Positions 1 through 62,585 of a stretch of 64,000 nucleotides of DNA are shown here, in pieces. Position 1 is the first letter of the stretch. Each line of letters starts with the position of its first letter. The stretch spans positions 1 to 64,000 of the forward strand of contig CAXHJY010000730.1 of the NCBI GenBank assembly GCA_964016885.1, given 5' to 3'. This DNA is from Eledone cirrhosa (taxonomy: Eukaryota). Under the pieces are notes generated by a model. It worked only from the letters and a program-made list of their open reading frames with translations. It had not been told where the DNA came from and did not search any database. The position numbers and the translations under genes were made by a program.

Positions 1-3000
1 TATATATATATATATATGTATGTATATATATATATATATATATGTATATATATATATATATGTATATATATATATATATATATATGTATATATATATATA
101 TATATATATATGTATATATATATATGTATGTATATATATATGTATATATATATATGTATGTATATCTATATATATATATGTATATATGTATGTATATATA
201 TATATATATATATGTATATGTATATGTATATATATGTATATAGTATATGTATGTATATATATATGTATATGTATGTATATATATGTATATGTAGTATATA
301 TGTATATATATATGTATATATCTATATATATGTATATGTATATATATGTATATGTATATGTATATATATATATGTATATATATATATATATGTATATATA
401 TATGTATATATAGTATATATATGTATATATATATGTATATATGTATATATATATGTATATATGTATATATATGTATATGTATATATGTATATATATATGT
501 ATATATATATGTATATATATGTATTATATATATGTATATATGTATATATATATGTTATATATATGTATATGTATATGTATATATATATATGTATGTATAT
601 ATATATGTATATGTATATATATATGTATATATATATATATGTATATATGTATATATGTATATATATATATATGTATATATATATGTATATATATGTATAT
701 ATATATGTATATATGTATATATATATGTATATATATGTATAGTATATGTATATGTATATATATATATGTATGTATATATATGTATGTATATGTATGTATA
801 TGTATATGTATGTATATGATATGTTGTATATGTATATATATATGTATATAGGAACAGTAGACCCGACAGTGAGCTCAAGCCGTTTCGACGGCTAATTCTG
901 GACTAAATTTAGTCCAGAATTAGCCGTCGAAACGGCTTGAGCTCAGCTGTCGGGGTCTTACTGGTTCCTATTACCCACTCTACTACCTCAAGTATGAGTA
1001 CTTTGGTGCGTTATGGTCCACCTGGTTCCTACATTTCTCTATATGTATATATATGTATATATATGTATATATATATATATGTATATATATGTATATGTAT
1101 ATATTGTATATGTATATGTATATGTATATATATGATATAAGTATAGTATATGTATATATAATGTATTGAATATGTATAGTATGATGTATATGTATGTATA
1201 TGTATATATGTATATTATATATGTATATGTATTATGTATGTATATTGTATATATGTATATTATATGTATAGTATATGGATATATATGTATATGTATATGT
1301 ATATATGTATATATGTATATATGTATATGATATATGTATGTATATATATGTATATATGTATATATATATATGTATATTATATATATATATATATATGTAT
1401 ATGTATATATGTATATATATATATGTATATATATGTATATATATGTATATGTATATGTATATATGTATATGTATATATGTATATATAGTATATGTATATA
1501 TATGTATATATATATATATATATATATATGTGTATATATGTATATGTATATATGTATATATATGATATATGTATATGTATATATATGTATATATATATAT
1601 GTATATATATTATATGTGTATATATGTATATGTATATATATGTATATATGTATATATGTATATATATGTATATATATATGTATATATATGTATATATATA
1701 TATGTATATATATATGTATATATATATATGTATATATATATATATGTGATATATGTATATATATATATGTGTATATAGGTATATATATATGTGTGTATAT
1801 AGGTATATATATATGTGTGTATATATGTGTATATATATATATGTGTATATGTATATATATATGTGTATATAGGTATATATATGTGTATATGTATATATAG
1901 ATATATATATATGTATATATATTATATATGTGTTAGTAGATATATGATATAGGTATATATGTATATTATGTATATATATATATGTATATATATAGTGTAT
2001 ATATATGTATATATATATGTATATAGTATATATATATATATATAGTATTTATATATATGTGTATATATGTATATATATTATGTGTATATGGTATATATAT
2101 ATGTGTGTATATATGTATATATTATATGTGGTATATATGTATATATATATGTGTATATAGGTATATATATGTGTATATAGGTATATATATATGTGTATAT
2201 ATGTATATATATATATGTGTATATATGTATATATATATATGTGTATATATGTATATATTATATATGTGTATATATAGTATATATATATATGTTTATATAT
2301 GTGTATATATGTATATATATATATGTTTATATATGTATATATATATATGTGTATATATGTATATATATATGTGTATTATATGTATATATATGTGTATATA
2401 TGTATATATATATGTGTATATATGTATATATATATGTGATATATATGTATATATATATGTGTATATATGTATATATATATGTTTATATATGTATATATAT
2501 ATATGTTTATATATGTATATATATATATGTTTATATATGTATATATATATATGTTTATATATGTATATATATATATGTTTATATATGTATATATATATAT
2601 GTTTATATGTATATATATATATGTTTATATATGTATATATATATATATGTTTATATATGTATATATATATATATGTTATATATATATATATGTTTATATA
2701 TATGTTTATATATATATATGTGATATATATGATATGTATATATATATATGTATATATATGTTTATATATATGTATATATATATATAATGTGTATATATGT
2801 ATATAGTATATATTTATATATGTATATATATATGTTTATATTTATAAGTATATATATATGTTTATATATGTTTATATTTATATATGTATGTTATATATAT
2901 ATATATGTTTATATATGTATATATATATATGTTTATATGTATATATATATGTTTATATGTATATATATATGTTTATATATATGTTATATATGTATATATA

Positions 3001-5264
3001 TATGTATATATATATGTTTATATATGTTTATATATGTATATATATATGTTTATATATGTATATATATATGTTTATATATGTATATATATATATGTATATA
3101 TATATATATATATATGTTTATATATGTATATATATATGTTTATATATGTATATATATATGTTATATATGTATATATATATGTTTATAATGTATATATATA
3201 TGTTTATATATGTATATATATATGTTTATATATGTATATATATATATGATAAGTATATGTATATATATGTTATATATAATGTATATGTATATGTATATAT
3301 GTTTATGTATATATATATGTATATAATATGTTATATGTATATATATATGTTTATATATGTATATATATATATGTTTATATATGTATATATATATGTTATA
3401 TATGTATATATATATGTTTATATATGTATATATATATATGTTTATATATGTATATATATATATGTTTATATATGTATATATATATGTTTATATATGTATA
3501 TATATATGTTATATATGATATATATATGTTTAATATGTATATATATGTTTATATATGTATATATATATATATGTTTATATATGTATATATATGTTTATAT
3601 ATGTATATATATGTTTATATATGTATATATATGTTTATATATGTTTATATATGTATATATATATGTTTATATATGTATATATATATATGTATATATATAT
3701 ATGTTTATATATGTATATATATATGTTTATATATGTATATATATATATGTTTATATATGTATATATATATATGTTTATATATGTATATATATATGTTTAT
3801 ATATGTATATATATATATGTTTATATATGTATATATATATATGTTTATATATGTATATATATATATGTTTATATATGTATATATATATGTTTATATATGT
3901 ATATATATATATGTTTATATATGTATATATATATATGTTTATATATGTATATATATATGTTTATATATGTATATATATATATGTTTATATATGTATATAT
4001 ATGTTTATATATGTAGATATATATATGTTTATATATGTAGATATATATATGTTTATATATGTATATATATATGTTTATATATGTATATATATATGTTTAT
4101 ATATGTATATATATATGTTTATATATGTATATATATATGTTTTATATATGTATATATATATGTTTATATATGTATATATATATGCTTATATATGTATATA
4201 TATATGCTTATATATGTATATATATATGCTTATATATGTATATATATATGCTTAATATGTATATATATATGTATATATATGTTTATATATGTGTATATAT
4301 ATATATGTTTATATATGTGTATATATATATGTTTATATATGTGTATATATATATGTTTATATATGTGTATATATATATATATGTTTATATATGTATATAT
4401 ATATGTTTATATATGTATATATATATGTTTATATATGTATATATATATGTTTATATATGTATATATATATGTTTATATATGTATATATATATGTTTATAT
4501 ATGTATATATATATGTTTTTATATGTATATATATATATGTTTATATATGTATATATATATGTTTATATATGTATATATATATATGTTTATATATGTATAT
4601 ATGTTTATATATGTATGTATATATGTTTATATATGTATATATATATATGTTTATATATGTATATATATATGTTTATATATGTATATATATATGTTTATAT
4701 ATGTATATATATATGTTTATATATGTATATATATATGCTTATATATGTATATAATATATGCTTATATATGTATATATATATATGCTTATATATGTATATA
4801 TATATATGCTTATATATGTATATATATATATGTATATATATATATGTATATATATATAATATATATGTATATGTATATATATATGTATATATATATGTAT
4901 ATATATATGTATATATATATGTGTATATATATGTGTATATATATGTGTATATATATATGTATATATATGTGTATATATATGTATATATATGTATATATAT
5001 ATATATGTATATATATGTATATATATATATATGTTTATATATATGTATATATATATGTTTATATACGTTTATATTTGTTTATGTATGTATATATATATAT
5101 GTTTATGTATGTATATATATATATGTTTATGTATGTATATATATATATGTTTATGTATGTATATATATATATGTTTATGTATGTATATATATATATGTAT
5201 GTATGTATGTATGTATATATATATATGTATATATATATATATGTATATGTATGTATATATATAT
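1..5264. repeat. Compound (TA)n / (TATATG)n / (TATATGTTTA)n microsatellite tract
   Basis: Low complexity throughout except the 849-1040 island. Confidence 0.97.
849..1040 (+). mobile_element. Fold-back palindrome plus tail; probable inverted, truncated Penelope-like element end with the 3' half of a hammerhead
   Basis: Perfect 76-bp palindrome 870-945, imperfect to 849-970; GAAA (929-932), stem III and GTC (949-951). Confidence 0.6.
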
Positions 5265-6330
5265 CCCAGGGGAAAGTCCTGGGACCACTACTGTTTTTGG
5301 TGGCTCTCTCAGACATGCTCTCTGTAGTATATACAACAACATCCCTTACTAGCTCTGCTGATGACACTAAGGTCGCACAGGCAATCAAAAACCCGGCTGA
5401 CGCTGCCCTTTTACAGCAGGATCTGGATGCCATATACAAATGGGCGGAAGAAAACAACATGCAGTTTAATGGTGGCAAATTCCAAGCCCTACAATACAAA
5501 CCTACAAACACAAATATAGTGGAACACAGCTACACAGGACCAGGAGGGACCGATATCTCCGTGTCAAAATCGATACGAGACCTGGGCATAGACATGAGCG
5601 ATGATGCATCTTTTTCTTCACACATCATGAAAGTGGCGACAATGTGCAGACGACTCGCTGGCTGGATCTTGAGGACTTTCCGGACAAGAGATCGAGACAC
5701 CCATGTTGACACTATGGAGGACATTTGTCCTAAGCCGCCTGGACTACTGCTCCCAGTTGTGGTCACCCCATAGTGTCAAACTAACCATGGAGCTTGAGGC
5801 AATCTAGCGAAGCTACACCAAGAGGATTCCCAAGATGAGGGAGACAAGCTACTGGGAGAGGCTGAAGGAACTGAACCTCTACTCCTTGGAGCAAAGACGC
5901 GAAAGATACGCAGTGATCTACATGTGGAAAATCCTGGAGGGACTAGCACCAAACTTTGGCATTGGGAGCTGGACCAACTCTCAAACAGGACGTCACTGTG
6001 TGGTGCCAAAGGTCCCGTCTTCCACATCTAGAATAAGGAGCAGGTATTGCAATAGCCTGGGATTCAAGGGCCCTCAACACTTCAACAGACTGCCGAGGGA
6101 TCTGAGAGATTTGCATGACGTGGAGGTGGATGTCTTCAAGAAACATCTCGACACCTTGTTATCCAGGAACCCGGATGAGCCCACAGCAAGACACGAGGGA
6201 AACCTAAGGGCAGCAGCAACAAACTCCCTCTTACACCAGTGGAGATAAGGTTGGAGATAAAATGTGTTGAGAGAGAAACTGTGTCTGAGAGGGATAGAAT
6301 GTAGTGTACGGGAGAGGAGACTGATGTATC
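5265..6330 (+). mobile_element. 5'-truncated CR1-like LINE (RT C-terminal half, degenerate)
   Basis: [22 protein letters not shown] and YWERLKELNLYSLEQRRERY motifs with frameshifts. Confidence 0.88.
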
Positions 6331-61760: not shown

Positions 61761-62159
61761 ACAGCTCTTTGGGTGGTGGTGGGGTGACAAAGGGGAGGAG
61801 GATTACAGGGGGAGATAAGGAATAAATGACAGGAGGAGGAGGAAAGATAAAGACCTCTCCCAAAAGTTAATACAGAGTTTTCTCCCTTTTTTAATAGTAA
61901 TAATAATAATATGCTTTTTCTTTTCTTCTTCTTCTTCTTCTTCTTCTTCCCATTCTTCTTCCTCCTGTGATAGTTCCTGGGGTGTCACAGTCCTCAGTTT
62001 CCCCTTTGTTCAAGTTTTTCTTCCTCTCATAATGATAATAGTAACAACAACAATAATAATAATAATCATTCACATCTTCGTTTGAAGTCACTTTATGATC
62101 AACTGTTTTATTTTACTTACTTACGTGTGTGTGTGTGTGTGTGTGTGTGTGTGTGTGTG

Positions 62160-62585
62160 TATCAATAATATTAATAAATGGAAGCTATCTTTATAAAACC
62201 ATATTTATTCTATTATATATATTTCAAGGGTATCAACAATTTTGGTACGTTCTCATCAGATAAAATGCAAAAGTTGGTTTACAGATAGTGACATATTCAA
62301 AACTAGAACTTAGCGTTTTGGGTTCTGTTTGAATAGTGAAGAACTTTAAATCAGGATGGATATGTCACTATCTGTAAACCAACTTTTGTATTTTATCTGA
62401 TGAGAGCGTACCAAAATTGTTGATACCCTTGAAATATATATAATAAAATAAATATGGTTTTATAAAGATAGTTTCCATTTATTAATATTATTGATATTAT
62501 ACTCCAGAAGAAACTGTAGAGTGCTTCTAATCTGTTATAAACTAAATTTGTTGAATAACCATCAAATTAAATAACTCATTGCTTT
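62160..62585 (+). mobile_element. Fold-back PLE pLTR element: 140-bp arms (62160-62299 and 62357-62496) plus tail
   Basis: Homologous to 28075-28255; between (GT)n and (TA)n. Confidence 0.85.
62389..62450 (+). ncRNA. Type I hammerhead ribozyme downstream of the AP2M1 stop (antisense twin at 62206-62267)
   Basis: tattttat-CTGATGA-stem II-GAAA-TATATA-TA-ataaaata; predicted cleavage after 62442. Confidence 0.8.

What the first reader, a model, noticed from the sequence alone, without database searches (positions are those of the whole stretch)
849..62585. Recurring architecture: microsatellite, inverted arms, hammerhead, unpaired tail, (TA)n
Seen: four non-coding elements of different size (849-1040, 34472-36715, 43712-43930, 62160-62585) share this layout. 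The two largest end their arms 46 and 54 nt past the predicted cleavage site and continue into a shared tail motif actccag...aaactgtagagtgcttct, also found reversed near 28075-28110 in the coding PLE. Known: PLEs carry hammerheads in pLTRs, form inverted ends, and some clades favour microsatellites. Inference: a microsatellite-targeted, ribozyme-bearing fold-back system mobilised by PLE RT, possibly undescribed in this lineage.
Basis: partly seen in the sequence, partly recalled or inferred. Interest (0 to 1): 0.8.

Follow-up and report, generated by a model that had tools for sequence, protein, structure and literature searches.

The report
Twin hairpins set Penelope element ends
These fold-back elements are truncated copies of a known jumping gene (Hydra-clade Penelope-like elements), not a new system, but their ends stop a few bases before either of two repeated hairpins that I found described nowhere and that likely tell the element's enzyme where to start copying.

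Summary
The layout is real in 2 of the 4 elements (34474-36715, 62161-62585): inverted arms, an intact type I hammerhead, a one-sided tail, microsatellite flanks. 848-1039 has only half a hammerhead; in 43712-43923 a broken one lies outside the arms. These are 5'-truncated, head-to-head insertions of Hydra-clade Penelope-like elements (PLEs). Inverted copies, one-sided tails, hammerheads and (TA)n targeting are all published, including for an octopus Hydra family, so the 'undescribed fold-back system' is not supported. In related loci it occurs twice, 57-83 nt apart, between hammerhead and start codon (two in 23 of 34 sites). Terminal copies stop 2-11 nt (mostly 3-4) before the first or the second hairpin; the window's arms stop 4-5 nt before theirs. 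The tail is therefore the interval between two hairpin-marked ends. Likely mechanism (inferred): each hairpin positions the reverse transcriptase, and priming from both target strands gives head-to-head arms with one tail. Seven literature searches found no description of the twin hairpin.

The parts
848..971 (.). Element A: perfect fold-back, centre 909/910; right arm holds the 3' half of a hammerhead (928-951)
972..1039 (+). Element A tail (68 nt) with a tail-type hairpin at 977-999, 5 nt after the arm end; weakest member (missed by the out-of-sample model)
28025..28114 (-). Tail of the coding PLE's inverted copy: hairpin A 28111-28089, second local hairpin 28065-28044, end at a (TA)3
28115..29305 (-). 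Inverted, 5'-truncated copy of the Hydra-clade PLE: end of endonuclease, long 3' UTR, hammerhead (core 28217, cleavage after 28171)
29306..31415 (+). 5'-truncated, decayed Hydra-clade PLE ORF (RT motifs, CxCx5C linker, GIY-YIG endonuclease) and 3' UTR; interrupted near 30170-30500 by another repeat; its 3' end is lost
34240..34440 (+). Extra PLE 3' end (E): hammerhead core 34256, cleavage after 34294, tail hairpin 34352-34373 after a natural TA run, end at (TA)n shared with element B
34474..35525 (-). Element B left arm: inverted copy without tail; its hammerhead core carries a G-to-A change
35526..36629 (+). Element B direct copy: 85-nt loop (may hold the last codons of an ORF, not significant) plus right arm; hammerhead core 36529, cleavage after 36583
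36630..36715 (+). Element B tail (86 nt): hairpin A 36634-36661, second local hairpin 36684-36702
43712..43923 (+). Element C: 32-bp-arm palindrome followed by a decayed hammerhead-like motif (43787); no tail hairpin; does not share the layout
48049..48145 (-). Extra PLE-type 3' end (F): hammerhead with one core mismatch, ends in (TA)n 43 nt after the cleavage site, no tail
62161..62496 (.). Element D arms (137 nt each, 62-nt loop); hammerhead core 62397 (+), cleavage after 62442, mirror copy at 62259 (-)
62497..62585 (+). Element D tail (89 nt): hairpin A 62501-62525, second local hairpin 62545-62568, end at (TA)n

Best explanation
Elements B and D, the coding element at 28-31 kb and likely A are 5'-truncated, head-to-head insertions of Hydra-clade Penelope-like elements next to simple repeats, whose 3' ends stop a few bases before either of two tandem hairpins that likely act as start signals for the reverse transcriptase. 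Shown: the anatomy; two copies of a covarying hairpin between hammerhead and start codon in related loci; terminal copies ending just before the first or second hairpin. Inferred: the protein binds a hairpin on the RNA and primes from a nicked AT-rich target 3-5 nt 5' of it; starting at hairpin A gives the tail-less end, starting at hairpin B gives the tailed end; priming from both target strands, by a protein pair, gives two truncated cDNAs joined head to head, hence inverted arms, one tail of fixed length and a variable centre. The fold-backs would be dead-end insertion products, not replicating units.
For: PLE identity: RT fragment hits 108 proteins, best E 3e-33; a profile of 50 long homologs matches RT, linker and endonuclease pieces at 29275-30988. 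D and the 28-kb end are 79.7% identical over 222 nt. Hairpin: a descriptor written on the five window sites finds only these five in 128 kb, shuffle mean 0.43 (post hoc). In 79 related loci: 89 matches on the sense strand against 12 on the other, 56 of the 89 in 28 pairs 57-83 nt apart; 23 of 34 start sites with 150 nt upstream have two hairpins, 8 one, 3 none. First inner pair is Watson-Crick in 67 of 68 distinct hairpins (45 C-G, 22 T-A; shuffle mean 37.5, 0 of 5000). Ends (25 rows): 9 stop 3,3,4,4,4,4,7,8,11 nt before hairpin B, 3 stop 2,3,3 nt before hairpin A; L025 and L029 run straight into (TA)n. Window arms stop 4 (B), 4 (D), 5 (A) nt before the hairpin; contigs laid on the 28-kb end leave into TA repeats at 28114, 3 nt before it. 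A model built without window sequences ranks three window hairpins first (E 6e-5, 0.008, 0.03); B's matches L025's hairpin in 28 of 31 nt. By eye the same hairpin is in published consensus ends of Hydra-2_Amil and Hydra-2_Ajap and twice at the 5' end of Hydra-1_Ajap. A Poseidon PLE protein extends both target strands, starts internally at two sites that bound the tail, and is predicted to be a dimer (PMC11167929).
Against: No biochemistry for any Hydra element. Strand of the hairpin is unresolved (G-U 8 vs A-C 6), so a DNA-level signal is not excluded. 13 of the 25 rows do not show a clean hairpin-adjacent end: 7 are cross-family hammerhead matches, 3 rows (L013 twice, L022) diverge 11-32 nt early, L011 and L078 break earlier, and L051 ends about 10 nt after its only hairpin. 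Hairpin B was never seen for the window's own families. The out-of-sample model scores B weakly (E 3.4) and misses A. Reads crossing the first end favour the tailed form about 5:1 rather than 1:1 (RAD library, AT-rich drop-out likely). The loci are metagenome contigs, many from a few projects, not independent, and may be chimeric (L026 and L031 are one locus with different ends). Perfect loop-less palindromes (A, C) fit self-priming better than twin priming. C is unexplained.
Confidence: 0.62

Rival explanations
1. Same elements and same hairpins, but the inverted arm is made by snap-back self-priming of one cDNA, and the tail-less end by the endonuclease cutting at the AT-rich site beside hairpin A (a DNA-level resolution signal).
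For: Self-priming proposed from palindromic junctions (PMC3846280); tail ascribed to endonuclease-mediated resolution (PMC8557442). A and C are perfect palindromes with 0 substitutions. In B and D the tailed copy is the longer one. The 3' box of the hairpin is near-palindromic, the bases before it are AT-rich, and strand is unresolved.
Against: In the 28-kb element the tailed copy is the shorter one, though the other copy's end is lost. Tail-less ends also occur on direct copies (L015, L028, L029). The only biochemistry maps tail limits to RT start sites (PMC11167929). Two equivalent hairpins with the same 3-4 nt offset suggest one activity acting twice.
Confidence: 0.25
2. One reading: a dedicated non-autonomous fold-back family that is transcribed as a unit, self-cleaves and is re-mobilised by PLE RT.
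For: The hammerhead-to-arm-end stretch is far deeper than the ORF in contigs (2.09 million against 3,400-13,200 summed depth) and in RAD reads, so short terminal copies are abundant. Fold-backs keep hairpin A, so a read-through RNA could in principle be primed.
Against: Centres, sizes and families differ among all window elements (B vs D 61.7% identical). The 6 opposite-strand joints shown lie at different places with at most 46 reads against about 16,000 depth. A full transcript of D folds into one duplex (-227.8 kcal/mol) that buries the hammerhead. A and C lack a complete ribozyme; B's left core is mutated. Excess of 3' ends is expected from 5' truncation, and RAD depth is biased.
Confidence: 0.07
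3. The palindromes are sequencing or assembly fold-back artefacts in repeat-rich DNA.
For: A's left arm differs only by four one-base losses, as in noisy long reads.
Against: Artefacts would mirror tail and flanks too; here the asymmetry falls at a conserved site, arms carry substitutions and loops, and independent reads show the same end point.
Confidence: 0.03

Closest known systems
Hydra clade of C-terminal endonuclease PLEs, incl. Hydra-1_Obim of Octopus bimaculoides and Penelope-13_HM (PMC8557442: abstract, sections 3 and 11, passages, supplement parts 2 and 53 and search hits seen)
   Same: C-terminal GIY-YIG without CCHH, CxCx5C linker, CxxC and CxH motifs, type I hammerhead near the 3' end, (TA)n targets, shared termini, 5'-truncated inverted copy.
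   Different: Window families have other hammerhead sequences than Hydra-1_Obim (by eye), a roughly 0.9-kb 3' UTR and 68-92-nt tails against the 30-40 bp given for PLEs. The twin hairpin and its fixed offset to both ends are not mentioned in what I read, although the hairpins are visible in the paper's consensus sequences.
PAc, Poseidon-clade PLE of Anolis (PMC11167929: parts 1-2 of 4 of the text seen; supplementary figures are images and the .gbk file could not be read)
   Same: Tail bounded by two internal RT start sites; both target strands extended; AT-rich cleavage; hammerhead not needed for insertion.
   Different: PAc start sites lie inside the ORF in one AC-rich stem-loop, 30-40 nt apart; here the ends lie in the 5' UTR, 57-92 nt apart, each just before its own copy of a conserved hairpin. 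Fig. S1/S2, unseen, may bear on this.
Adineta vaga Penelope elements (PMC3846280: passages seen)
   Same: Inverted pLTR, optional tail at one end, palindromes at the inverted junction, pLTR-only mobilisation in trans.
   Different: 31-bp tail, target-site duplications; self-priming is the model offered.
Non-LTR retrozymes (10.64898/2026.07.22.740005: part 1 of 5 seen; PMC4209133 and PMC6765202: passages seen)
   Same: Non-coding, type I hammerhead with short palindromic helix III, derived from PLE pLTRs.
   Different: Retrozymes are head-to-tail tandem arrays; these are head-to-head pairs whose transcript would bury the ribozyme.

Membership tests
Hydra-clade PLE (28025-31415 element) | RT followed by C-terminal GIY-YIG endonuclease in one ORF | tested here: met
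   Profile matches in order RT 284-435, 440-480, 481-560, linker/EN 556-658, C-terminus 668-704; ORF is decayed.
Hydra-clade PLE (28025-31415 element) | CxCx5C linker; no CCHH in the endonuclease; CxxC and CxH near the C-terminus | tested here: met
   Read from translations against the definition.
Hydra-clade PLE (28025-31415 element) | N-terminal RWK and DKT motifs | not testable with these tools
   Copy is 5'-truncated. In its 50 long homologs RW[KRE] is in 37, DK[TS] in 44, DKG in 0.
Hydra-clade PLE (28025-31415 element) | Canonical hammerhead near the 3' end | tested here: met
   28217 (-), stems 8/3/3.
Hydra-clade PLE (28025-31415 element) | Insertion into (TA)n | tested here: met
   Only (TA)3 at this copy's tail end; relatives leave into TA runs at 28114-28133.
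Hydra-clade PLE (28025-31415 element) | Phylogenetic placement with named Hydra references | not tested
   No tree built; reference sequences were seen only in a paper supplement.
Hydra-clade PLE (elements B, D) | Homology to a coding Hydra element | tested here: met
   D 79.7% to the 28-kb end; B 57-62% with shared hammerhead and hairpin, hairpin 28 of 31 nt to L025. B's possible last codons were not a significant hit.
Hydra-clade PLE (element A) | Hammerhead plus tail hairpin | tested here: inconclusive
   Half hammerhead; hairpin at the right offset but missed by the out-of-sample model.
Hydra-clade PLE (element C) | Hammerhead inside the arm and tail hairpin after it | tested here: not met
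Non-LTR retrozyme | Head-to-tail tandem units each with a hammerhead | tested here: not met
   No hammerhead-bearing tandem array among the rows shown (150 of 179) or in the self-comparison.
Non-autonomous fold-back family | Many copies sharing one inversion centre | tested here: inconclusive
   None among 5 window elements; none dominant in reads on 27870-29300; no genome was available.
Active hammerhead ribozyme | Self-cleavage | not testable with these tools
   Structure only; no RNA holder listed.

The most novel reading that the evidence does not exclude
Hydra-clade PLE RNA carries two tandem docking hairpins, one per subunit of a protein pair; each sets an RT start 3-4 nt upstream, and the pair primes both strands of a (TA)n target at once. 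One RNA signal would then explain the tail, its fixed length and the head-to-head inversions that have puzzled the PLE field, and a roughly 100-nt cassette placed after any RNA would direct its insertion into (TA)n.
Probability: 0.4. Interest if true: 0.75.

Novelty: new member of a known kind. Interest (0 to 1): 0.55.

Why it matters
How PLEs make tandem and inverted copies with a one-sided tail is named as an open question in PMC8557442, and only one protein has been studied in vitro (PMC11167929). A short, covarying, twice-repeated signal with a fixed offset to both ends turns this into a direct test: move, break or restore each hairpin and map start sites. It also gives annotators a rule for Hydra-clade boundaries and a marker for non-coding remnants. 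The fold-back architecture itself is ordinary for PLEs.

Tried and rejected
No whole genome is held, so no genome-wide census. The repeat finder and Rfam were swamped by TA repeats; no hammerhead among the 150 of 495 Rfam rows shown, and miRNA-family hits are repeat artefacts below gathering score. Pfam gave nothing useful for the PLE fragments. Viral contigs: 41 pattern matches, no relative. No RNA holder listed: no evidence either way on expression. Complex prediction for two copies of a homolog's residues 1-480: no answer. Host: a second protein search named no host; 'octopus-like' rests on my recall of the repeat landscape and one named homolog at 49%. First start-site census was mis-anchored and undercounted pairs (14 of 48); redone. 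Single-sequence folding of tails is weak (z from 0.07 to -2.97, 2 of 7 below -2), so the hairpin rests on covariation, not energy; B's lowest-energy fold uses a shifted register. The model included the window hairpins and proves nothing; one search is the fair test. RNA editing as the source of arm differences: substitutions are mixed, rejected. L026 as a full-length parallel (inverted copy ends 9 nt before hairpin A, direct copy 3 nt before B) is weakened. Literature: searches list no paper on paired hairpins in PLE tails; the library lacks most subscription papers and Repbase notes.
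Full report
Setting. The window is 35% G+C, about a fifth simple repeats, and crowded with retroelement pieces. It looks like an octopus genome; that is my recall plus one named homolog, not a tool result. No whole genome is held.

Observation. Four local fold-backs are at the stated places, and all 8 outer ends touch simple-repeat tracts, against about 1% of background positions. Other repeats also sit at tract edges here (10 of 64 edges carry a (CAT)n-type end), so adjacency is not unique to these elements. 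Intact type I hammerheads with 8-bp helix I and a short palindromic helix III are in B (36529), D (62397) and the reversed end at 28217. The 46 and 54 nt distances and the shared tail motif are exact. A has only the 3' half of a ribozyme, and C has a decayed one outside its arms, so the layout holds fully in 2 of 4.

What the elements are. The coding piece at 29306-31415 is a decayed PLE. Its homologs have RWK and DKT and no DKG, and the piece itself shows the CxCx5C linker, no CCHH, and CxxC and CxH: the published definition of the Hydra clade (PMC8557442 section 11). 28025-29305 is an inverted, more truncated copy of its 3' end, 96.4% identical to the direct copy. D's end is 79.7% identical to it; B is more distant. 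So B, D and the coding element are each two 5'-truncated copies joined head to head; the 'loop' is the extra length of one copy. This anatomy is standard: an inverted 5'-truncated copy, a tail at one end only, hammerheads in pLTRs and microsatellite bias (PMC8557442 passages; PMC3846280 passages; PMC8969392 passage).

Population evidence. Laying two contig sets and two RAD libraries on 27870-29300: depth peaks on the stretch from hammerhead to arm end (2.09 million summed contig depth against 3,400-13,200 over the ORF end; not a copy number, and RAD depth is biased by a cut site). Among the 24 loose-end rows shown (936 not shown), records leave into TA repeats at 28114 (35 and 1 contigs) and at 28130/28133 (1,200-1,543 reads per row), while 13,226 and 14,031 reads continue at 28123 into a variant tail. 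The 6 opposite-strand joints shown are at different places with at most 46 reads. So the 3' end point is shared and centres are not.

The new part. A descriptor written on the window finds five sites in 128 kb and nothing else: in A, B, D, the 28-kb end, and an extra PLE end at 34352 where the outer pair is changed on both sides (post hoc). To test it I fetched 79 loci of relatives. The motif occurs 89 times on the sense strand and 12 times on the other; 56 of the 89 form 28 pairs 57-83 nt apart, and 23 of 34 start sites with enough upstream sequence have two copies, 8 one, 3 none. The order is hammerhead, 36-69 nt, hairpin A, hairpin B, start codon (34 of 63 loose core matches are followed by a hairpin, the rest include chance matches and tail-less ends). 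With no pairing required in the search, the first inner pair is Watson-Crick in 67 of 68 distinct hairpins, split 45 C-G and 22 T-A; the second and third also covary (tool counts). Relatedness among loci is not controlled. Comparing terminal with internal copies (25 rows): 9 stop 3-11 nt (six of them 3-4) before hairpin B and 3 stop 2-3 nt before hairpin A; the other 13 rows are listed under evidence against. L025 runs into (TA)n 3 nt before hairpin B; L029 3 nt before hairpin A. The window's tail-less arms stop 4, 4 and 5 nt before their hairpin. A model built only from outside loci ranks the 28-kb, D and 34352 hairpins first in the window, scores B weakly and misses A; B's is matched by L025 in 28 of 31 nt. 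By eye the hairpin is also in the published ends of Hydra-2_Amil and Hydra-2_Ajap, imperfectly in Hydra-1_Crog, and twice at the start of Hydra-1_Ajap, while the Hydra-1_Obim, Hydra-1_Ajap and Hydra-1_Amil consensus ends stop some 30-45 nt after the cleavage site. So the tail is the interval between two hairpin-marked ends; it holds hairpin A and never hairpin B.

How it likely works. In the one PLE studied in vitro, the protein nicks AT-rich DNA on both strands, extends both, starts internally at two sites that bound the tail, does not need hammerhead cleavage, and is predicted to be a dimer (PMC11167929). I infer that in Hydra elements each hairpin docks the enzyme and sets a start 3-5 nt upstream, in an AT-rich stretch that resembles the target. 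One strand primed at A and the other at B, each cDNA truncated and the two joined, gives exactly B and D. Shown: anatomy, paired hairpins, offsets. Inferred: RNA-level binding, start sites, protein pair, twin priming. The main rival keeps the hairpins but makes the second arm by snap-back and the tail-less end by endonuclease cutting; loop-less A and C fit it, the shorter tailed copy at 28 kb fits it less well. A replicating fold-back family is unlikely: a whole transcript of D is one long duplex that buries the ribozyme.

Novelty. The elements are new members of a known clade. Searches list no paper on paired tail hairpins, and PMC4209133 has no occurrence of 'hairpin' or 'Hydra'; unseen supplementary figures of PMC11167929, Repbase notes and subscription papers could hold it. 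An earlier unchecked AI note from another genome saw a single such hairpin in PLE tails; it agrees but is not evidence, and its summary does not mention the pair.

Verdict. Observation partly confirmed; interpretation partly supported; membership in Hydra-clade PLEs about 0.9 for B, D and the coding element; mechanism 0.62; interest 0.55, carried by the twin-hairpin rule.

Noticed in passing
window 27040-28025 (+): Another PLE 3' end: C-terminal endonuclease-like codons at 27054-27240, a decayed hammerhead-like motif near 27665-27705, split by a (CAT)n-ended repeat; reads show it ending in TA at 28025, tail to tail with the Hydra element.
   Followed up: partly
window 47150-47320 (-) and 60376-60460 (-): Two more type I hammerheads (scores 11.6 and 10.6) without the tail hairpin; 47303 lies in a unit with a roughly 130-nt direct repeat between TA tracts; 60442 ends near a (AACC)n run. 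Probably other PLE clades.
   Followed up: no
window 26139-26566 and 11166-11708: A fifth, older fold-back (72%) built of degenerate 21-26-nt purine-rich repeats with short terminal inverted matches; related array at 11.2-11.7 kb; no hammerhead found.
   Followed up: no
window 31416-31485: Right after the direct PLE copy breaks off, the sequence jumps back to endonuclease codons (copy of about 30712-30770): a partial tandem or template jump.
   Followed up: partly
window 28044-28065, 36684-36702, 62545-62568, about 34395-34434: A second local hairpin of unrelated sequence lies 6-20 nt before the tail end in four tails; not tested for covariation in outside loci.
   Followed up: partly
loose ends at 28123, 28183, 28192: The most abundant related subfamily in the RAD reads has a different helix II and a tail hairpin whose inner stem appears changed on both sides (majority line, agreement 0.66-0.71).
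   Followed up: no
window 6392-6492: Two (CAT)n-ended repeat termini face each other across a short TA tract (32-nt inverted match); LINE-type ends at TA tracts are common here.
   Followed up: no
window 44384-46264 (-), 56280-57659 (-), 31690-34090 (+) and others: Many copies of LINE-type elements with RT and PHD finger, some with long open frames.
   Followed up: partly
L005:394-503: A (TA)n run lies between hairpins A and B inside an ORF-leading copy, as if a target repeat were built into the unit.
   Followed up: no
L051:185-216, 2671-2701: A family with one hairpin only, whose terminal copy ends about 10 nt after it: an exception to the rule.
   Followed up: no
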